From positions 1 through 26,652 of the forward strand of contig WQZE01000001.1 of assembly GCA_009780875.1 (NCBI GenBank): DNA of 26,652 bases, written 5' to 3'. This DNA comes from Bacillota bacterium (lineage in GTDB: Bacteria; Bacillota; Clostridia; Christensenellales; Pumilibacteraceae). Shown in pieces: positions 2,924-11,294 of the stretch (position 1 is the first letter of the stretch; the number at the start of each line of letters is the position of its first letter). The translations under genes and the position numbers were made by a program. The notes under the pieces are model-generated. The model ran no database searches, was not told the DNA's origin, and saw only the letters and a program-made list of their open reading frames with translations.

Positions 2924-3049
2924 TGTTTGGATTTATTTCAAAATTGGTTGCGATGAGCCGTCTGATTTTAAACTTGATTATAAAATAATCATAATGTTTA
3001 GCAGGGGCGTTGCATCACAAGATGTTACAAATAATTTAGCACGCAGACA

Positions 3050-3146
3050 TTTTGAATCCCAAAGTCCAACAAATTCTTTTCATTCGGTGATTTTGATACC
3101 CGAAGTCCAACCAAATATACTCATCAGGGGCTTTGAATCCCAAAGT
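3050..3146. repeat. Three imperfect direct repeats with 40-41 bp period
   Basis: TTTGAATCCCAAAGT (3051), TTTGATACCCGAAGT (3092), TTTGAATCCCAAAGT (3132). The first two continue with CCAAC. Confidence 0.7.
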
Positions 3147-3178
3147 TTCTGAATCCAGAATATTATTCAGAAACTTTG
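3141..3178. repeat. 14-bp perfect inverted repeat spanning the flavin reductase stop codon
   Basis: CAAAGTTTCTGAAT (3141-3154), 10-nt spacer, ATTCAGAAACTTTG (3165-3178). Confidence 0.8.
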
Positions 3179-3660
3179 ATTTCTAGAATCTCTCCAATAT
3201 ACATCATATGATAGTCTTGTTTGGGATACAGTTTTTCTATGTGTTCTTTTTGCAAAAAGCAAGCAGGGTCAAAGTATTGTGCCGACATTTTTTTGCACAC
3301 ATACACCTTTTTGGACTCCACAAAGTAGGGGGCATCGTGACTGTACTCCACCGCCATCCCACTGGTCTTGATTTTGTCCTCTCTAAAACCGCTGGCCGCA
3401 CCAAAATACTTGTGCTTGTCGTGGTGTTCATCTTTCAAAAAAGACACCGCAAAAGTATCCACCGCATCCAATATGGTCTTGGTGTGCCGCTGTGGTCTGA
3501 CCACCAAATAAAACACGGGCTTGTTCCACATATAGCCAATACCACCCCAAGCCACGGTCATCGCTCCTGTCTTGTCGCCATCCCTAGCCGACACCACCGC
3601 TCAATCCCGAAACAACTCCTCAAAAAAAGGATTGCTCTCACCAACGCCAATCGTTTTCAT
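3163..3660 (-). pseudogene. Flavin reductase-like (flavoredoxin-type) protein with one in-frame TGA at 3601-3603
   Basis: ATG at 3660 after a G-rich SD gives MKTIGVGESNPFFEELFRD*AVVSARDGDKTGAMTVAWGGIGYMWNKPV...RPQRHT...DYHMMYIGEI. The stop falls where this family typically has Trp (as in NPF..IGKDWMLITAG). Confidence 0.75.
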
Positions 3661-3929
3661 ACCCCCCCCCTAGAACACACCATTGCCACGGTAAAACGGC
3701 AATGATACCGTTATCTCAATGAAATGTACAAATGTGCACTCAACCAATGTATTTTAGAATATCATTTTGTGTCACTTTTGTCAAGTGAATTTGTACATAT
3801 CCGCATCGCATAGGACTGTTTTTGATTCGTATGCAGTAGATCCTATTGCAACCTATGGGCAATGGGATTGATTTATGAAAGTGTGAGGTAGTGAATACGC
3901 TATTACTCTGCGACATAGAAATAAATATG

Positions 3930-3959
3930 TTTTTTGAATAATTTAAATTATTCAAAAAA
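3930..3959. promoter_or_regulatory. Perfect 30-bp palindrome just upstream of the -35 box
   Basis: TTTTTTGAATAATTT|AAATTATTCAAAAAA with no spacer; ends 4 nt before TTGACA. Confidence 0.7.
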
Positions 3960-3963
3960 ACAA

Positions 3964-3992
3964 TTGACAAATTATGTAGAAAGGAGTATAAT
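3964..3992 (+). promoter_or_regulatory. Perfect consensus sigma-A promoter pointing into the island
   Basis: TTGACA (3964-3969)-17 bp-TATAAT (3987-3992). Confidence 0.9.
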
Positions 3993-4020
3993 TATAAAAT
4001 AAAGTGTTTCTTTTTGATAA

Positions 4021-4051
4021 GTACACAACAAAGGATAATTGTATATTATGG
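4021..4051 (+). repeat. Left copy of the 31-bp inverted repeat (contains AAAGGA RBS and ATG at 4048)
   Basis: GTACACAACAAAGGATAATTGTATATTATGG; 31/31 identical to the reverse complement of 8549-8579. Confidence 0.95.
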
Positions 4052-4584
4052 GTTTGTTTTATTTATCTTGCAATCTTAAAATATCTGAACTGGCAAGTTT
4101 TGCTCAAATTATATTTTACTTGCTCACATTCATCTTTACAATGCTACCGATTGGGATAAATCAACTCTTTCTACGGCCAGCACAAGAGGCCGCCCAGCAA
4201 ATAGTAGAGTTAGAAAAAGTGCTGGATAAGATAGCACAGATATACAAGACCCCATCGCTATTATTGCCTGAAATTCAAGCAAAACTTGTGGCAGAAGTTC
4301 AACAAATTTCTGTCCGCTATAATTATCCTAATAAAAAATTTTTACGCTTTATATATCGCACCATATCTCGTAAAATTTTTTGCCAATTTATAAATACATC
4401 TGCATATATCCGAACAAATCTTGAAAGGATATACGGACGCATCTTATCGTGGCAATCCGAGATGGGCAATGATGGGGAAAAATTATACCCATCTAGATTT
4501 AATGCAACAAAAATAATGATTGAAGACATTGCGAACAGAAAAAGATGGGGAAAATATTGTGAAAACAAGCAGAAATTTGAATAA
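4048..4584 (+). CDS. Hypothetical protein with one N-terminal transmembrane segment and a predicted helical region (178 aa)
   Basis: AAAGGA RBS and ATG inside the left repeat. Hydrophobic segment FAQIIFYLLTFIFTMLPIGI. Stop lies 1 nt before the next ATG. Confidence 0.75.
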   Translation: MGLFYLSCNLKISELASFAQIIFYLLTFIFTMLPIGINQLFLRPAQEAAQQIVELEKVLDKIAQIYKTPSLLLPEIQAKLVAEVQQISVRYNYPNKKFLRFIYRTISRKIFCQFINTSAYIRTNLERIYGRILSWQSEMGNDGEKLYPSRFNATKIMIEDIANRKRWGKYCENKQKFE

Positions 4585-4585
4585 A

Positions 4586-6832
4586 ATGACTCCTATTTTT
4601 TGGGTAGGAATCCGTGAGTCTGAAATATCCGACAGTCAACATTTATTTGCTGGGAGTGTTACCTATTATGGCTCTAATCAAAATGGGAATAGGTCTTATT
4701 GCAATGAGCGTGTTTGCATCTATTCAATTTCATCAGAGGCAAAATTGTTTGTTAAAAATAGTTTGTTAGAGATAATTGCCATCCACCCCGATTGTTCTTT
4801 TTTGTGGTATAATTTGGAAAAAGCTTATTGCTATGGTGAAGAGATTTTGAAGAAATCCTTGGGACTCAATAGCCAAGACTTGTTTCAAACATTCAACAAC
4901 AAAATTCAAACTCGCTTTTGGGCTGAACAATTTTGTAGTGTACCTACTTCAAAAAAAATATTGGGCCAAGCGTGTGAGTACAAATACTTACAGTGTCAAA
5001 TGAGCAATGCCAAAGCATTTATTATTCAAGAGGCATTGGGTTCTGGTGGGAAAACTTCCTATTTGATGACTAGCAAGAATCAGGATGTAGTGTATAATCT
5101 TCTCACCCCGCAAAATGAATACTTGGTTTCGGCTTATATTGAACACAGTATATCTGTCAATGTGCACGCACTCATTGCGGACAAGCATATTGCCGTGTCT
5201 AATGGTTCATTGCAGATAATAGAGAATGAAAATAATACTTTTTTATACAAAGGCGGAGATTATATTGCTTTCTCACAACTAGATTTTCCCACACAAAAAA
5301 AAATCAATCAAACTGCTCAAATACTTTGCAAACATTTACAAAGCCAGGGTTATAGAGGCATTGTAGGACTGGACTTTGTAGTAGATGCCAACAATAATGA
5401 ATACTTTATTGAGTTCAATTGTAGGTTTCAATCTTCTACAATGCTTTTAAACACGGCGCTCATAAAAAACAATAAAAGGAGTGTTTTTGAACAACATATC
5501 CAATGTTTTGCAGACGGCTACAAACCAGATTTGACCGTATGCGTAAGTCAAAGTTTTTACAAATACTATTGCAATTTTGATGTTTCAATTTTGCACCCAA
5601 AATTGAAATTATTGGAACAACATAGTTCAACTAAAATTTTTTATAATGGACTCTCTTTGGACTCAACTAAACAAGGACAGTATATGTTTGATGTGACATA
5701 CAATAGGTCTATTTGTGACATATCACCTAATCATACGCTATGGGTAAGCGAAAATATAAAATTTGAAAAAGATGTAGTGCGATTTAATAAGTTGGATGAC
5801 AAGTTGTGGCATAAGGCAAACTTGCTAACGAGAGGAGTTAGAATAGATTTAGAAGAAATAGAAAAAGCAATTGGAAAAATAAAAGAAGGAACTTTTTCTT
5901 CTATTGATATGACTCTTGAAAATGGGCTGTATGTGAATTGTCCTGTCAATATAGAATTTACACAACTAAGTCCTTATCGTGTGCGAGTGATAGCAGGAGT
6001 TTGCACGCTATGTTTCTTTGATACGCCTCTTTGCACAGTGGAGATAGAATCATTAAATCCCCATATTGAATCCAAAGTAACCAAATCAGGTCATCCCATC
6101 AAAAGAATTGCTTATTTGTCTGGGGATAGGATTCGCATCACCTGTGCACCCTCCTGCTGCTTCAAAGACTCTATGCAAGGGTGCAAATTTTGTAACTCCA
6201 CAAGAAAGCCCAAGGACTATTCCTTGTCTGACATTTTAGACACCTTGGAAATTTGCAAACAACATATTCCTTGCCGTCATTATTTGATTGGTGGCGGCAG
6301 TGATGAGAGTGCTTATGGATGGGAAACTATTTGCCTCATTGCAAACAAATTAAAATCCATAACGACAGAAATCAGTTGTATGTGCATCCCCCCATCCGAT
6401 CCAAAGACTCTTGAAAAAATGAAGGCAAACGGAATCACTGATGTGTCTATCAATATAGAAATTTTTGATGAAAACCAAGCCATCGCACATATGCCCGGTA
6501 AGGGGCGTATTGCAAGGGAGCATTATTTTGATACACTCAAAAAAGCCGTATCCATATGGGGCACGGGCAATGTGCGAAGCATCGTGATACTGGGTCTAGA
6601 GCCAATGGGTACTCTGCTTTCCGGCATTGAGAGACTATGTCAACTAGGGGTTCAACCTGTACTGTCGGTGTTCAGACCTACAGCCGGATGTGATTATGAA
6701 AATAATATCTCACCGCCCATAGACTATTTGCTTGATGTGTATCAGCAAATTGAACAAATTTGCATCAAGAACAAGGTTGAACTAGGGCCTCGGTGTCCAA
6801 GGTGCCAGAACAACATCATGATTGTGGAATAA
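4586..6832 (+). CDS. ATP-grasp ligase / radical SAM fusion protein (748 aa)
   Basis: N-terminal half has ATP-grasp motifs (EALGSGGKTSYL; SAYIE; GYRGIVGLDFVV..FIEFNCRFQSST). C-terminal half has a Cys cluster (CAPSCCFKDSMQGCKFC), barrel-like motifs (LIGGG, SINIEIFD, MPGKG, VILGLE, SVFRP) and a terminal CPRC. Confidence 0.8.
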   Translation: MTPIFWVGIRESEISDSQHLFAGSVTYYGSNQNGNRSYCNERVCIYSISSEAKLFVKNSLLEIIAIHPDCSFLWYNLEKAYCYGEEILKKSLGLNSQDLFQTFNNKIQTRFWAEQFCSVPTSKKILGQACEYKYLQCQMSNAKAFIIQEALGSGGKTSYLMTSKNQDVVYNLLTPQNEYLVSAYIEHSISVNVHALIADKHIAVSNGSLQIIENENNTFLYKGGDYIAFSQLDFPTQKKINQTAQILCKHLQSQGYRGIVGLDFVVDANNNEYFIEFNCRFQSSTMLLNTALIKNNKRSVFEQHIQCFADGYKPDLTVCVSQSFYKYYCNFDVSILHPKLKLLEQHSSTKIFYNGLSLDSTKQGQYMFDVTYNRSICDISPNHTLWVSENIKFEKDVVRFNKLDDKLWHKANLLTRGVRIDLEEIEKAIGKIKEGTFSSIDMTLENGLYVNCPVNIEFTQLSPYRVRVIAGVCTLCFFDTPLCTVEIESLNPHIESKVTKSGHPIKRIAYLSGDRIRITCAPSCCFKDSMQGCKFCNSTRKPKDYSLSDILDTLEICKQHIPCRHYLIGGGSDESAYGWETICLIANKLKSITTEISCMCIPPSDPKTLEKMKANGITDVSINIEIFDENQAIAHMPGKGRIAREHYFDTLKKAVSIWGTGNVRSIVILGLEPMGTLLSGIERLCQLGVQPVLSVFRPTAGCDYENNISPPIDYLLDVYQQIEQICIKNKVELGPRCPRCQNNIMIVE

Positions 6833-8552
6833 CAATAAAAGCCAAAGCTGCAATATTCGCACTTGATATGAGTTTTTGATTGGGTGAAAAGGATAGACTT
6901 ATTGATACCGTATTTATTCCTGGCACAAGGGTACTATTTTTTTCTTTTAGGAGAGTTAAAAAAGATTCTACTACAGAATTTGGCTCAGTTAGGTGTTGAT
7001 CGCATTCAGTCGTTTGCATCAAATCACAAGGAGTTTTATCTTTAATTGCAACGGTCTCGGCCGGCTTATTAGGAGTTGGCGTAGGCTTGCTCTTTGTCGC
7101 TTCTTCTTTCATAGCCTCGGTGGACGGCGTGGTCACGATTTGATTTTTTTCCTTTGAGATTCCTTTTATTAAACGCTTATATAGGTATTTTCCATACCCA
7201 ATTACTGTTACTATCGTTACAAGTTGATTTGCAGCTTCCAAAATTTTGGAAATATTGGGTGTAATTACATTCACAAGGATTTCCACAAGTGAGTTATGGC
7301 TAATTTGCAAATAAAATTTATTTTCATTTCCTTGGGTCAATTCGCTAAGTGTTTTGTCTATTTTTTGTTGCAATTGCAATACCTTTTCATAGTGTTTGGA
7401 AGAATCAATATTGGTTTTTATCACCATCTCTAATTGATTGGTGTACAATGGTCTATACAATAAAATATCTTTTATTTCACCAAAATGAATTCTCCATTTA
7501 TTCCGCTCTGCAGAGGTTGTTATATATTGCTTGGCACGCATTTCTAGATGTTCTAGGAGTTCCTTTTCTGTGTGTCCATTGGTGCCAAACAAACCAAGAA
7601 TAGCACCCAAATGACAAAGATGTTTAAAAATTCTAAAATTTTTGACCTGTAAACAGGCAAATAATCCCCGTTTGAGGTACTCATAGGCGATTTGCATTTG
7701 TCCGATAGCATAATACAAGTTGCACAATGGAAAATATTCGTTTTCATATTGATTAAAATGTATAATGAAAGATTTCAAAAGTTTTTTATAGTCCGTTGCA
7801 TCCAAGTAGCGATCTACGGGTCGTTCCCTATTTGCTTGTGGTGCATTCTTTTCATCACTACTTTTTTCAACCTCCATTAAGAATTGAATAGACTCTCCAT
7901 TTGCATTTAGGATTTCTTTCATCAGCCCAATGGTATAGGGGATTTGATATGCCGGTAAATATATTTTGTCAAATATATTCTGATTCCATTCCGTAAAATC
8001 CAAATTGAGATGACACATCTGCACCTCGGTGAATTTGCAAGAATGAAACTTGGTTCCATCCAATGTATTGTGTTCAAATTGACAGTTTTTAAACTCGCAT
8101 TCTTCAAAAAGCGTTTGACTAATGGTGCTTCTATGGAATGAGACATTATAAAATTTTGTTCTAAGAAAATTACATTGACTAAAATTATTCCCTTCAATTC
8201 TCTCGGCAAGGTCATCAAATCCAATCGCACAATCCACAAAATCACAACTTTGAAAATTAGTACCTTTCAGGTAGCAATTGTGAAATTCAACCTTCTGAAA
8301 GTGCGAGCCCGTCAGTGCAGAACAATCAAAAACGCTTTGATTGAATCTCATATCCATTAGTTGTGATCGTTTTAAGTTGAGGTTGATGTATTGATTTTTT
8401 TCGTGGTCTACCCAATTCTTACTCTTATTGTAACGGGTCACAGGATTTCCAAATACGGACAACTCTTGGTTGGAAACCTCTAAATCTACGCTAGTGTATT
8501 TAGGTATGCCTGCTTTTTTGCCCGTTGCTTCTAGCCACTTCCTATCATCCAT
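6816..8552 (-). CDS. Pentapeptide-repeat protein with helical middle region and low-complexity C-terminus (578 aa)
   Basis: Repeating 5-residue periodicity over roughly residues 55-195 (e.g. SQCNF LRTKF YNVSF HRSTI SQTLF EECEF KNCQF EHNTL DGTKF HSCKF). RBS and ATG lie inside the right repeat. Overlaps the 3' end of the fusion gene by 17 nt. Confidence 0.85.
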   Translation of the reverse strand: MDDRKWLEATGKKAGIPKYTSVDLEVSNQELSVFGNPVTRYNKSKNWVDHEKNQYINLNLKRSQLMDMRFNQSVFDCSALTGSHFQKVEFHNCYLKGTNFQSCDFVDCAIGFDDLAERIEGNNFSQCNFLRTKFYNVSFHRSTISQTLFEECEFKNCQFEHNTLDGTKFHSCKFTEVQMCHLNLDFTEWNQNIFDKIYLPAYQIPYTIGLMKEILNANGESIQFLMEVEKSSDEKNAPQANRERPVDRYLDATDYKKLLKSFIIHFNQYENEYFPLCNLYYAIGQMQIAYEYLKRGLFACLQVKNFRIFKHLCHLGAILGLFGTNGHTEKELLEHLEMRAKQYITTSAERNKWRIHFGEIKDILLYRPLYTNQLEMVIKTNIDSSKHYEKVLQLQQKIDKTLSELTQGNENKFYLQISHNSLVEILVNVITPNISKILEAANQLVTIVTVIGYGKYLYKRLIKGISKEKNQIVTTPSTEAMKEEATKSKPTPTPNKPAETVAIKDKTPCDLMQTTECDQHLTEPNSVVESFLTLLKEKNSTLVPGINTVSISLSFSPNQKLISSANIAALAFIVIPQS

Positions 8553-8579
8553 AATATACAATTATCCTTTGTTGTGTAC
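8549..8579 (-). repeat. Right copy of the 31-bp inverted repeat (contains RBS and ATG at 8552)
   Basis: Plus-strand CCATAATATACAATTATCCTTTGTTGTGTAC is the exact reverse complement of 4021-4051. Confidence 0.95.
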
Positions 8580-8626
8580 AGTGTGCGATTTTTTATAAAT
8601 TTGGTTGTTCTTGTCTTTTGGTTTGG

Positions 8627-8655
8627 TTGCACTTTTTTTTTATTTGTGGTATAAT
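8627..8655 (+). promoter_or_regulatory. Sigma-A promoter of the P-type ATPase operon
   Basis: TTGCAC-17 bp (including T9)-TATAAT with a TG extension. Confidence 0.75.
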
Positions 8656-8768
8656 TATGGGAGAGTATTTTGATTTTGTGTTGTTGGGGAGGTGGAGTTT
8701 TGGGATGGGGAGTGGGGCACAAAGTTTGGGGGTGGATTTTGGATATTGGGCAGAATGATATTAGTTTG

Positions 8769-11294
8769 ATGGAGCCGCAGGCGTTGGAGGGCAACATTAT
8801 TACGGTTGAGCAGATGCAAAAGGCTCGGCAGAGAAAACGCAAGGGTCCCAAGTTGACGCAGGCGGATATGTCGCAGGCGGAGCGGTATGTTGTGGAGTAC
8901 AAGGATGGGTTGAGTACGGAGCAGGTTGCCAAACGCAATGAGGATGGATATATCAACTTTGCGAGTGACACGGGGGGCAAGACCTATGGGCGGATTTTGT
9001 TCAACAACCTTGTGACCTTTTTTAACTTTTTGACATTTGGTGTCGCTATCGCTTTGATAATAGCGGGGGCTGGTTTTGCACAAATGTTTTTTATGGTCAT
9101 TATTTTGGTCAACTTGGCGATTGGTATTTGGCAAGAGTTCAAAGCCAAGGCGGCGGTCGCCAAGTTGACGCTTGTGTCGGCACCTACGGCGATGGTGGTG
9201 CGGAATGGGAGCAAGGTGTCTATTCCCATCTCAGAGGTCGTGCTGGACGATATCATTTATTTGGAGCAAGGCAAACAAATCCCCTCGGATGCAAGGGTGA
9301 TACACGGGGAGTTGGAGGTCAACGAGAGTATGTTGACGGGCGAAAGTGTACCCATTGCCAAAAAGAATGGTAGTACGATTTTGGGCGGTAGTTTTGTGAC
9401 AGCGGGCAAATGCTATGCACGGGTGGAACGAGTGGGCAGTGCCAACTATGTACAGACTTTGTCCTCACACGCCAAAAGATATGTCAAGCCCAAAAGTGAG
9501 ATTCAAGACAGTGTGCGTCGCATCATCAAAGTGGTGTCCATCATTTTGGTGCCCATCTCTACTGTGTTGATTGTGTATAGTTTTCTCAACAACGGCAGTT
9601 GGCAAGCCACTATTTTTAGTGTTTCTGGGTCCATTATCGGAATGATACCCGCCGGAATGTTTTTGTTGACCTCTTTGGCTTTGTTTGTGGGGCAAGCAAG
9701 GCTGGCACGCAAGAATGTCTTGGTGCAAGATTTGTATTGCATAGAGATGCTTGCAAGGGTCAATATTTTGTGTCTTGACAAAACGGGAACCATCACGGAT
9801 GGTACGATGCAGGTCAATGAAGTTGTGGAGGTCGGCACACCCAAAGAGGGTGCAAAGGTTGCAGAACTTGTGTCCGCCATCATCACAGCGACGGGCGACA
9901 ATAACCAAACCGCTTTGGCACTCGCCAACAAGTTTGGATATGCAACCAAAGACAACCCACACAAACCCAAAAAGGTGTTGCCTTTTAGCAGCACTCGCAA
10001 AATGAGTGCGGTGGAGTTTGAGGGGCAAGGCACCTACTTTTTGGGAGCACCCGAGTTTGTGTTGCAAGATATGGGATCCAAGGTGGAAGAAATTGTCAAT
10101 GATAGAGCCAAACAGGGTTTGCGTGTAATGTGTCTTGCACACAGTATGGGCGAAATAAAGGAAGAGAAACTGCCCGGCACACGGCGTGCACTTGCACTCA
10201 TTGCCATTGAGGACCATATCCGAGAAGATGCAATCACCACCATCAAGCATTTTAGGGAGAATGGAGTCAAAGTCAAGGTCATCTCAGGAGACAATCCTTT
10301 GACCGTGAGTGAGGTCGCCAAAAGAGTGGGCATTGACAAAGCGGACTTGTGGGTATCCTTGGACGGGTTTGATGAGAGCCAGGTCATCTCGGTTGCTGAC
10401 AAGTACACCGTGTTTGGGCGTGTGACACCCGAACAAAAACAATGGCTTGTCAAGGCGATGAAATTGGATCGCAACAATACCGTGGCGATGACGGGCGACG
10501 GGGTCAATGATATCTTGGCAATGAAAGAGTCGGATTGTGCCATCTCGGTGGCAAGTGGCTCTGAGGCTGCAAGGAATGTGTCCCACTTGGTTTTGATGGA
10601 TAGCAATTTTAATTCTATGCCAAGTGTGGTGCAAGAGGGCAGGCGAGTCATCAACAATATTGAAAAATCTTCGGCACTGTTTTTGATGAAGACTTTGATG
10701 ACCATCTTGTTGACCGCCTTGGTGCTTATCAACATTGTGTTGCCTCCTGAGATTATTGGATGGATGCGTGAGTATCCGTTGCAGACAAACAACTTGTTGA
10801 TGTTTGAACTTTTTGTGGTGGGCGTGCCGAGTATGTTCTTGGCGTTGCAATCCAACAAGGAAATCATCAAAGGCAAATTTTTGTACAATGTATTGTCGCA
10901 AAGCGTGCCGGGCGGACTTGCCTTGTTTGCCAATATTGTGGCACTCTATATATTTAGACACAGACTTGGACTGGAAAGTGATCAACAAATCCTCAGTATG
11001 ATTGTCATCTCTATGATTTTTACGGGACTTATGGTGTTGATTAGGATTGCTAGCAAGCCCTCCTTTAATACTTTTAGGGTGGTGCTCGTGGTGGTGGTCT
11101 TTGGACTCACGAGTGCGAGCGTGTTTGCTTTGGGTCCCATCTTTGGCATAGACTACAAGCCAGCATTTTTGGCGAGCAAGGATGACCCCAATGTCCTCAA
11201 TATGACACAGACTTTATTTTTGTTTACGACCACGCTTTTGGCGTATGGAGTGGTGGGTGTGCTTACCACGGCTCTTAGCAAAGTGAAACTTTGA
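8769..11294 (+). CDS. Cation-transporting P-type ATPase (HAD-IC, CtpE-like); start assigned to ATG 8769
   Basis: TGES, phosphorylation motif DKTGTIT, ISGDNP, MTGDGVND, and multiple transmembrane segments. M4 reads IPAGM. Confidence 0.93.
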   Translation: MEPQALEGNIITVEQMQKARQRKRKGPKLTQADMSQAERYVVEYKDGLSTEQVAKRNEDGYINFASDTGGKTYGRILFNNLVTFFNFLTFGVAIALIIAGAGFAQMFFMVIILVNLAIGIWQEFKAKAAVAKLTLVSAPTAMVVRNGSKVSIPISEVVLDDIIYLEQGKQIPSDARVIHGELEVNESMLTGESVPIAKKNGSTILGGSFVTAGKCYARVERVGSANYVQTLSSHAKRYVKPKSEIQDSVRRIIKVVSIILVPISTVLIVYSFLNNGSWQATIFSVSGSIIGMIPAGMFLLTSLALFVGQARLARKNVLVQDLYCIEMLARVNILCLDKTGTITDGTMQVNEVVEVGTPKEGAKVAELVSAIITATGDNNQTALALANKFGYATKDNPHKPKKVLPFSSTRKMSAVEFEGQGTYFLGAPEFVLQDMGSKVEEIVNDRAKQGLRVMCLAHSMGEIKEEKLPGTRRALALIAIEDHIREDAITTIKHFRENGVKVKVISGDNPLTVSEVAKRVGIDKADLWVSLDGFDESQVISVADKYTVFGRVTPEQKQWLVKAMKLDRNNTVAMTGDGVNDILAMKESDCAISVASGSEAARNVSHLVLMDSNFNSMPSVVQEGRRVINNIEKSSALFLMKTLMTILLTALVLINIVLPPEIIGWMREYPLQTNNLLMFELFVVGVPSMFLALQSNKEIIKGKFLYNVLSQSVPGGLALFANIVALYIFRHRLGLESDQQILSMIVISMIFTGLMVLIRIASKPSFNTFRVVLVVVVFGLTSASVFALGPIFGIDYKPAFLASKDDPNVLNMTQTLFLFTTTLLAYGVVGVLTTALSKVKL

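What the first reader, a model, noticed from the sequence alone, without database searches (positions are those of the whole stretch)
4021..4051. The repeat contains a tyrosine-recombinase-like core (ATAA-7 bp-TTAT) resembling dif
Seen: the 3' half of the repeat reads GGATAA-TTGTATA-TTATGG, a short dyad (ATAA/TTAT) around an asymmetric 7-bp spacer. Established: tyrosine recombinase sites are dyads around a 6-8 bp asymmetric spacer, and E. coli dif is GGTGCGCATAA-TGTATA-TTATGTTAAAT. The 11-mer TGTATATTATG is shared exactly, but the outer arms do not match and the spacer is 1 bp longer. Inference: a host Xer-like or other tyrosine recombinase could act here, and the site may double as a standard translation-start cassette. 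An alternative is that each gene arrived as an independent cassette sharing this leader.
Basis: partly seen in the sequence, partly recalled or inferred. Interest (0 to 1): 0.6.

Follow-up and report, generated by a model that had tools for sequence, protein, structure and literature searches.

The report
Recombinase flip site doubling as leader
The short dyad in the 31-base repeat is the conserved target site of a Xer-like tyrosine recombinase that flips a 4.5-kb gene cassette, so one outside promoter can read either of two opposed gene sets; its extra likeness to E. coli dif is mostly chance.

Summary
Observation confirmed. GGATAA-TTGTATA-TTATGG lies at 4033-4051, inside an exact 31-nt inverted pair (4021-4051 / 8549-8579) that occurs nowhere else in the genome.

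I fetched 80 homologous cassettes (ATP-grasp/radical-SAM enzyme facing a pentapeptide-repeat protein) from several phyla. About 45 are bracketed by inverted repeats, and every repeat contains GGATAAY-N5-RTTATC, that is ATAA-N7-TTAT.
- The 7-nt centre varies freely: 39 different centres among 42 sites.
- In several loci the repeat is only the 16-18 nt dyad.
- In 22 loci, a ~310-aa XerC/XerD-like tyrosine recombinase gene abuts one repeat. It lies on either side of the cassette.
- Eight short contigs end exactly at the repeats, the assembly signature of both orientations in one sample.

So the tyrosine-recombinase reading is supported. The actor is a dedicated Xer paralogue, not housekeeping XerCD at dif. 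The TGTATA match to dif is peculiar to this copy.

The window has no adjacent recombinase. The best candidate is on contig C136, and its 57%-identical relative in a related genome abuts such a site.

Flipping in this genome is inferred, not shown.

The closest described systems are Ureaplasma XerC/mba-UU376 and Mycoplasma Xer1/vpma.

This scan has reported the same kind of flip cassette before on other DNA.

The parts
3964..3992 (+). Outside promoter: TTGACA-17-TATAAT, pointing into the cassette, 28 nt before the left arm
   Evidence: 12 of 12 consensus match, the best in 3000-9500. No comparable inward promoter lies outside the right arm. A near-copy of this promoter sits at the end of contig C134 of the same genome.
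4021..4051 (+). Left arm of the 31-nt inverted repeat (outer 12 nt, SD AAAGGA 4030-4035, dyad core, ATG 4048-4050)
   Evidence: Exact 31/31 reverse complement of 8549-8579. These are the only two copies in the genome.
4033..4051 (+). Dyad core GGATAAT-TGTAT-ATTATGG. Inferred strand-exchange (overlap) region is 4039-4045, between ATAA and TTAT
   Evidence: Matches the family consensus GGATAAY-N5-RTTATC derived from 42 repeat pairs. The cleavage positions are inferred from tyrosine-recombinase site geometry, not measured.
8549..8579 (-). Right arm of the inverted repeat. Core is 8549-8567, inferred overlap region 8555-8561, ATG of the pentapeptide gene 8552-8550
4048..4584 (+). First inward gene on the left, 178 aa, no Pfam match. 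Its start codon lies in the right half-site of the left arm
4586..6832 (+). ATP-grasp + radical-SAM fusion enzyme gene (748 aa), the conserved left-hand cargo
   Evidence: Pfam PF02655 and PF04055. Homologues of 31-35% identity were found in 80 loci.
6816..8552 (-). Pentapeptide-repeat protein gene (578 aa), the conserved right-hand cargo, converging on the enzyme gene. Its start codon lies in the right arm
   Evidence: Pfam PF13599 and PF00805. The homologue reads inward from the right repeat in all 41 loci.

Best explanation
The dyad at 4033-4051, with its inverted twin at 8549-8567, is the core recombination site of a dedicated Xer-like tyrosine recombinase. Recombinase molecules would bind the GGATAAY and RTTATC half-sites. 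They would cut on either side of the 7-nt centre (4039-4045 and 8555-8561) and exchange strands. Because the two sites are inverted, this flips the 4.56-kb cassette. The only strong promoter (3964-3992) stays outside. In the assembled orientation it therefore reads the 178-aa gene plus the ATP-grasp/radical-SAM gene. After a flip it would read the pentapeptide-repeat gene through the same SD, spacer and ATG. Shown: the site family, its conservation, the physical linkage of a recombinase gene to it in relatives, and assembly evidence of both orientations in other samples. Inferred: the cleavage positions, that flipping still happens in this genome, and that the recombinase encoded on contig C136 performs it in trans.
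For: 1. An unbiased search for exact inverted repeats around 80 homologous cassettes found bracketing repeats with ATAA-N7-TTAT in about 45 loci.
2. Positions not imposed by my later pattern are also conserved: G2 in 39/42, Y7 in 42/42, R13 in 42/42, C18 in 31/42. The central three positions are random, and 39 of 42 centres differ.
3. In L018 and L065 (16 nt) and in L020 and L075 (18 nt) the repeat is nothing but the dyad.
4. A ~310-aa ORF lies -17 to +272 bp from one repeat in 22 loci, which is 18 of the 24 loci with at least 2 kb on both sides. It has Phage_int_SAM_1 + Phage_integrase domains and scores 220-248 bits on the XerC/XerD models, below their cut-offs. R, K, HxxR, H and Y are invariant.
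5. The recombinase lies on the enzyme side in 15 loci and on the pentapeptide side in 7. L064 and L065 are 77% identical inside the cassette yet have it on opposite sides. The left flank of L017 is the reverse complement of the right flank of L028.
6. Contigs L018, L021, L024, L025, L027, L041 and L042 begin and end exactly at repeats of 16-34 nt, and L026 ends at one. That is expected only if both junction types were present in the reads.
7. In the window's own genome, the C136 recombinase is 39-40% identical to the adjacent set, within that set's own spread, and is sister to its main clade. It is sporadic in the bacterial family, found in 2 of 60 other genomes. In G002 its 57%-identical homologue ends 10 nt from a dyad site at the first base of a contig. 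The partner site there carries a -10 box and the leader AAAGGATAAC-TGTAG-ATTATG.
8. A second dyad pair, TGATAAT-TAAAA-ATTATC, lies within 40 nt of the ends of contigs C53 and C210 of the same genome.
Against: No recombinase gene lies in the 26.6-kb window, and there is no remnant of one. The contig is assembled straight through both arms, so nothing shows two orientations in this sample. The 31-mer was not found in the metagenome collection, so no inverted version of this very locus is known. The tree branch joining C136 to the adjacent clade has only 85/61 support. C136 lies next to a tRNA gene, as integrases of mobile elements often do. Eight positions of the logo were fixed by my search pattern. 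The contig-end argument rests on how assemblers behave, not on reads.
Confidence: 0.75

Rival explanations
1. Fossil or locked switch. The site belongs to the family described, but this genome has no cognate recombinase, or only an unrelated one, so the cassette is fixed with the enzyme side on.
For: There is no adjacent recombinase and no remnant. The contig is assembled through both arms. The genome is only 77% complete, so presence or absence of the right enzyme cannot be settled. Five other loci with long flanks also lack an adjacent recombinase.
Against: The arms are 31/31 identical, including 12 nt outside the dyad that nothing else would obviously keep identical on the right flank. An intact recombinase of the right clade is present on C136. 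A second site pair lies at contig breaks in the same assembly.
Confidence: 0.14
2. Pseudo-dif. The housekeeping Xer recombinase(s) of the host act on the site, as on dif, on plasmid pdif sites or on phage dif-like attachment sites.
For: The inner half-sites ATAAT/ATTAT are those of the conserved dif palindrome at positions 7-12 and 17-22 (PMC3025954). An 11-mer is shared with E. coli dif. Phage dif-like sites can have centres longer than 6 bp (PMC3025954).
Against: The spacing is one base longer, the outer arms are unrelated, and there are two inverted copies. The 11-mer is unique among 42 family sites; the others share only 5-8 nt. All five other genomes checked carry the cassette-adjacent recombinase in addition to separate XerC/XerD-like genes of about 30% identity to it. 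The C136-type enzyme is found in only 2 of 60 related genomes, so it is not a housekeeping gene.
Confidence: 0.05
3. Shared expression leader only. The 31-mer is a duplicated 5' leader (SD, spacer, ATG, perhaps an RNA hairpin) that gives both genes the same translation start, and no recombination occurs.
For: SD and ATG lie inside the repeat. The dyad can form a 5-bp AU hairpin around the start codon.
Against: The predicted folding is no better than for shuffled sequence (z = -1.1 and +0.4). In most homologous loci the dyad lies far upstream of the start codon. This reading does not explain the linked recombinase gene, the two orientations or the contig breaks.
Confidence: 0.04
4. Terminal inverted repeats of a transposon, or target sites of a serine invertase of the Hin/Gin type.
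For: Perfect inverted repeats bound a segment whose G+C is lower (0.34-0.41) than that of the flanks (0.45-0.49).
Against: The segment has no transposase or serine-recombinase domain, and no Resolvase-family match exists in the genome. The dyad is symmetric about a single base, which does not fit a 2-bp central crossover. The linked enzyme in relatives is a tyrosine recombinase located outside the repeats.
Confidence: 0.02

Closest known systems
Ureaplasma parvum XerC (UU222) with the mba/UU376 locus and the UU172 element (PMC3599477, PMC3047005)
   Same: A Xer-type tyrosine recombinase inverts DNA at short inverted repeats, so that two oppositely oriented, unrelated genes are expressed alternately. 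Binding to the repeats and inversion in a heterologous host were shown experimentally. The published IRUU172 repeat begins ATAAT-TTAA-ATTATC, the same half-sites as here.
   Different: The centre is one base shorter (ATAA-N6-TTAT). The cargo is surface antigens of a mollicute. Here the cargo is an ATP-grasp/radical-SAM enzyme versus a pentapeptide-repeat protein, and the cassette is spread over several phyla.
Mycoplasma agalactiae Xer1/vpma and M. bovis Mbr/vsp expression-site switches (PMC2268961)
   Same: There is one promoter. The recombination sites lie in the 5' untranslated leader of each alternative gene. A Xer-like recombinase gene lies beside the locus, and inversions bring a silent gene behind the promoter.
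   Different: Those are multi-gene families of related lipoproteins with several sites. Here there are two sites and two unrelated gene sets, and in this window the SD and ATG lie inside the site itself.
dif, and the pdif-flanked dif modules of Acinetobacter plasmids (PMC3025954, PMC6449649, PMC13141974)
   Same: ATAAT/ATTAT inner half-sites. Discrete gene modules are bounded by inversely oriented Xer-type sites.
   Different: dif and pdif are 28 bp (11-6-11) and are acted on by the housekeeping XerC and XerD. Here the conserved part is 17-19 bp, the centre is 7 nt, and the linked enzyme is a separate paralogue.
Invertible G segment of phage Mu (Gin) and C segment of P1 (Cin); comparison from my own knowledge
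   Same: Convergent alternative gene sets sit inside an invertible segment and are read from a fixed outside promoter.
   Different: Those use serine invertases, 26-bp sites with a 2-bp crossover, an enhancer and Fis. None of these features is seen here.

Membership tests
Inversion site of a Xer-type tyrosine recombinase (expression-site switch) | Two copies in inverted orientation bracket the segment | tested here: met
   Exact 31-nt inverted pair, 4497 nt apart, and the only copies in the genome.
Inversion site of a Xer-type tyrosine recombinase (expression-site switch) | Dyad half-sites around an asymmetric 6-8 bp centre that is identical in the two partners | tested here: met
   GGATAAY / RTTATC around a 7-nt centre. 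An odd-length centre cannot be palindromic. The centre is identical within each pair but differs between loci, with 39 of 42 distinct.
Inversion site of a Xer-type tyrosine recombinase (expression-site switch) | The site is conserved in homologous loci while the surrounding sequence is not | tested here: met
   About 45 loci. In four of them the repeat is reduced to the 16-18 nt dyad.
Inversion site of a Xer-type tyrosine recombinase (expression-site switch) | A cognate tyrosine recombinase with intact catalytic residues | tested here: inconclusive
   Met in relatives: 22 loci have an adjacent gene, and R, K, HxxR, H and Y are invariant. In the window's own genome there is only a candidate acting in trans, on C136.
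Inversion site of a Xer-type tyrosine recombinase (expression-site switch) | Both orientations exist | tested here: inconclusive
   Met for relatives: the recombinase lies on either side, and eight contigs end exactly at the repeats. Not testable for this locus, because no reads are available and the 31-mer is absent from the metagenome contigs.
Inversion site of a Xer-type tyrosine recombinase (expression-site switch) | Recombinase binding and strand cleavage at the site | not testable with these tools
   Needs band-shift and cleavage assays.
dif (chromosome dimer resolution site of XerC/XerD) | 28 bp, 11-bp arms around a 6-bp centre | tested here: not met
   The centre between ATAA and TTAT is 7 nt. 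The outer arms do not match dif.
dif (chromosome dimer resolution site of XerC/XerD) | A single copy per chromosome in the terminus region | tested here: not met
   There are two inverted copies 4.5 kb apart. The GC skew keeps one sign across the window apart from single small dips at 3-4 kb and 7-8 kb.
dif (chromosome dimer resolution site of XerC/XerD) | Acted on by the housekeeping Xer recombinase(s) | tested here: inconclusive
   In five other genomes the linked enzyme is an extra paralogue. The genome's own dif could not be identified in the fragmented assembly.
hix/gix-type site of serine invertases | A serine recombinase is present, and the site is 26 bp with a 2-bp central crossover | tested here: not met
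   There is no Resolvase-family match in the genome, which is 77% complete. The dyad is centred on a single base.

The most novel reading that the evidence does not exclude
The dyad is the universal docking site of a cross-phylum system in which a Xer-like paralogue does two things. It flips cassettes, and over evolutionary time it exchanges them between sites, much as dif modules are shuffled. One promoter-plus-site dock can therefore receive different either/or pairs of conflict or defence genes: SIR2-STALD versus TIR in L020, the enzyme versus the pentapeptide protein here, and other cargo in G002 and on C53/C210. In this bacterial family, the 19-nt site serves at once as recombination core, Shine-Dalgarno sequence and start codon.
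Probability: 0.3. Interest if true: 0.75.

Novelty: new variant of a known kind. Interest (0 to 1): 0.55.

Why it matters
This gives a defined, testable target motif, GGATAAY-N5-RTTATC with an inferred 7-nt overlap region, for a widespread clade of Xer-like recombinases usually annotated simply as XerC/XerD or integrase. It also explains why assemblies break at these cassettes.

With the motif, such switches can be found directly in genomes and metagenomes. Either/or expression of unrelated genes, several of them defence-like, can then be studied in cultured gut bacteria.

For annotation, it warns that these 'Xer' genes are not chromosome-resolution enzymes. It also warns that a likeness to dif in AT-rich DNA needs comparative support before it is trusted.

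Tried and rejected
- I used the search for related loci instead.
- **Related genomes.** The same-family genomes share no DNA with the cassette, only with the neighbouring P-type ATPase gene. No orthologous locus in the other orientation is available.
- **Metagenome scan.** The exact 31-mer gave nothing in metagenome contigs.
- **The genome's own dif.** Patterns based on the E. coli and Firmicutes arms gave only scattered, unconvincing hits.
- **RNA hairpin or leader structure.** Folding was not better than for shuffled sequence.
- **Serine invertase.** No Resolvase family member is present in the genome.
- **Transposon reading.** No transposase lies in the segment.
- **Literature.** Searches for this cassette as an invertible element found nothing specific. 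The systematic survey PMC9881135 lists pentapeptide-repeat proteins as depleted next to predicted inversion targets.
- I redid it from coordinates.
- **Taxon.** The organism could not be named with the tools at hand.

Full report
**What is in the window.** It is the inner part of a 31-nt stretch, 4021-4051, whose exact reverse complement lies at 8549-8579. These are the only two copies in the 1.32-Mb, 226-contig, 77%-complete assembly, even with three mismatches allowed. The 19-nt core is expected 0.01 times by chance in the window.

Each arm holds AAAGGA and, 12 nt later, an ATG (4048-4050, and 8552-8550 on the minus strand). Three genes lie between the arms:
- a 178-aa gene with no family match (4048-4584, +);
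- an ATP-grasp/radical-SAM fusion (4586-6832, +);
- a pentapeptide-repeat protein gene (6816-8552, -).

The two outer genes read inward. The segment has lower G+C (0.34-0.41) than its flanks (0.45-0.49). A perfect TTGACA-17-TATAAT promoter at 3964-3992 points into the left arm. Nothing comparable points into the right arm. The window contains no recombinase gene or remnant of one.

**Is the dyad conserved?** I took seven protein homologues of the enzyme, aligned them and fetched 80 loci from one-genome-per-species contigs. They come from Lachnospiraceae, Oscillospiraceae and other Clostridia, Bacilli, Bacteroidales, Spirochaetaceae, Chitinispirillales, Alpha- and Gammaproteobacteria, and a Candidatus Absconditabacteria bin.

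I then searched each locus for exact inverted repeats of at least 14 nt lying 2.5-9 kb apart. This search knew nothing about the motif. It found a bracketing pair in about 45 loci, and every pair contains ATAA-N7-TTAT.

A register-fixed table of 42 pairs gives the consensus G-G-A-T-A-A-Y-t-n-n-n-a-R-T-T-A-T-C.
- The eight ATAA/TTAT positions were imposed by my second pattern, so they carry no independent weight in that table.
- Other positions are conserved without being imposed: G2 (39/42), Y7 (42/42), R13 (42/42) and C18 (31/42).
- The three central positions are random, and 39 of the 42 seven-nt centres differ.
- Within each pair the centre is identical.
- In L018 and L065 the whole repeat is 16 nt, and in L020 and L075 it is 18 nt. 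That is the dyad and nothing more.

**Which enzyme?** I clustered all ORFs in and around 41 loci. The enzyme and the pentapeptide protein are inside the repeats in all 41. A third family of about 310 aa lies outside, from -17 to +272 bp from one repeat, in 22 loci. Among the 24 loci with at least 2 kb on both sides, 18 have it.

Its properties are as follows.
- It has the Phage_int_SAM_1 + Phage_integrase architecture.
- It scores 220-248 bits on the NCBIfam XerC and XerD models, below their cut-offs of 330-335.
- Arg, Lys, His-x-x-Arg, His and the nucleophile Tyr are invariant.
- In 15 of the 22 loci the gene reads toward the cassette, and its stop codon often abuts or overlaps the repeat.
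- Five genomes were checked in full. Each has this gene in addition to other XerC/XerD-like genes that are only about 30% identical to it.

In a tree, 16 adjacent recombinases from Firmicutes and Bacteroidales form one clade and the four proteobacterial ones form another. Both are apart from those other XerC/XerD-like genes. This is a dedicated paralogue, not the chromosome-resolution enzyme.

**Does the cassette flip?**
- Relative to the recombinase gene, the enzyme side is proximal in 15 loci and the pentapeptide side in 7.
- L064 and L065 are 77% identical inside the cassette, yet the recombinase lies on opposite sides. The left flank of L017 is the reverse complement of the right flank of L028.
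- Seven short contigs (L018, L021, L024, L025, L027, L041, L042) begin and end exactly with repeats of 16-34 nt, and L026 ends with one.

The contig-end observation needs a word of explanation. A repeat that short does not break an assembly by itself. A contig running from the outer edge of one arm to the outer edge of the other is what a de Bruijn graph yields when the reads contain both junction types. This is an inference from assembler behaviour, not a read-level observation.

**The window's own genome.** It holds three tyrosine recombinase genes and no serine recombinase. The one on contig C136 (343 aa) has these features:
- it is 39-40% identical to the adjacent set, within that set's own range of 28-81%;
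- it has all the catalytic residues;
- it is sister to the main adjacent clade, with modest support of 85/61;
- it is not a housekeeping gene of this bacterial family, since only 2 of 60 other family genomes have it.

In one of those two genomes, G002, the 57%-identical homologue ends 10 nt from ATAAT-CTACA-GTTATCC, and that motif forms the very first bases of its contig. The partner site lies 103 nt from the end of another G002 contig. It is preceded by a -10 box and reads AAAGGATAAC-TGTAG-ATTATG followed by a different gene. That is the same leader design as in the window, with other cargo.

The window's genome also has a second dyad pair, TGATAAT-TAAAA-ATTATC. Each copy is followed by an SD and the ATG of an unrelated gene, and each lies within 40 nt of a contig end (C53 and C210).

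These facts make C136 the best candidate for a recombinase acting in trans. They also make it likely that such sites are active in this population. For the window's cassette itself there is no direct evidence: the contig runs through both arms, and the 31-mer was not found in metagenome contigs.

**The resemblance to dif.** The conserved palindrome of dif, at positions 7-12 and 17-22, is CATAAT/ATTATG (PMC3025954). The family half-sites GATAAY/RTTATC therefore resemble it, which fits the Xer-like nature of the enzyme.

But the spacing is one base longer, the outer arms are unrelated, and there are two inverted copies. Of the 42 family sites only the window's shares more than 8 nt with dif; the others share 5-8 nt, which is just the half-site. 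The TGTATA identity is therefore a peculiarity of this copy. The final G of ATTATG reflects the start codon.

I could not identify the genome's own dif.

**The 'translation-start cassette' idea.** This holds for a subset of sites: the window, G002, L050, L064, L066, L073 and L089 have the ATG in or at the right half-site. Several others use the GGA of the left half-site as part of an SD. In most loci the start codon lies 30-200 nt further in.

The RNA fold of the leader is unremarkable.

The idea that each gene arrived separately with a shared leader is not supported, because the gene pair and the repeat pair always occur together.

**Comparison with known systems.** The nearest described system is Ureaplasma parvum XerC (UU222). 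[quoted passage not shown] The published IRUU172 repeat starts ATAAT-TTAA-ATTATC, the same half-sites with a centre one base shorter (PMC3599477).

Mycoplasma Xer1/vpma has recombination sites in the 5' leaders of its alternative genes, and a single promoter (PMC2268961).

Acinetobacter dif modules are gene modules bounded by inversely oriented pdif sites.

I found no paper describing this cassette, or this motif, as an invertible element.

This scan's earlier notes report the same kind of Xer-flipped either/or cassette on several other genomes, and one on this window. I treated them as leads, and my tests above agree with them.

**Cargo and purpose.** One locus, L020, has a second dyad-flanked segment on the other side of the same recombinase gene. 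It sets a SIR2-STALD protein against a TIR protein plus a P-loop protein. The recombinase and site therefore serve several either/or cassettes, some of them with defence-type genes. What the enzyme/pentapeptide pair does remains unknown and is not the subject of this finding.

**Verdict.** It needs correcting in detail: the enzyme is a dedicated paralogue, not dif/XerCD; the spacer match is chance; and the genes did not arrive as separate cassettes. The switch is a new variant of a known kind.

Noticed in passing
G000 contigs C53:6863-6877 and C210:2654-2668 (loci L110, L111): A second site of the same type, TGATAAT-TAAAA-ATTATC-TAGTAT, is shared over 22 nt by two contigs and lies within 40 nt of each contig's end. 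Each copy is followed by an SD and the ATG of a different gene. On C53 the gene row includes a NUDIX and a guanylate-kinase-like P-loop protein. On C210 it is an unassigned 412-aa protein.
   Followed up: partly
window 3930-3959: A perfect 30-nt palindrome, T6-GAATAATTTAAATTATTC-A6, lies 5 nt upstream of the -35 box. It has ATAA-N6-TTAT geometry, like dif and like the Ureaplasma IRUU172 core. It has no U-tail after the stem on either strand, so it is not a plain terminator. It could be an accessory or regulator binding site.
   Followed up: no
G000 contig C134:1-160 (reverse strand): A near-copy of the window's promoter (TTGACAA..AAAGGAGTATAATT) points toward the contig end, which consists of tandem ACTTGATT units. 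The promoter module is repeated in the genome, again at an assembly break.
   Followed up: partly
L020:3852-6677: A second dyad-flanked segment lies beside the same recombinase gene in a Ruminococcus MAG. SIR2-STALD reads inward from one end, and TIR plus a P-loop protein read inward from the other.
   Followed up: partly
L114:1-40 (G002:C13) and L116:1490-1530 (G002:C3): In a genome of the same family, the homologue of the C136 recombinase ends 10 nt from a dyad site at the first base of its contig. The partner site on another contig has a -10 box and the same SD-site-ATG leader design as the window, in front of an unrelated gene.
   Followed up: yes
L017:6116-6216, L033:6022-6145, L056:251-312: Some repeats are 60-125 nt long and contain two or three dyads in a row. 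This suggests accessory binding sites or nested alternative crossover points.
   Followed up: no
G000 contig C136:1470-1560 (L003/L112): A tRNA-like sequence lies on the opposite strand directly downstream of the candidate recombinase gene. This placement is also typical of integrases of mobile elements.
   Followed up: no
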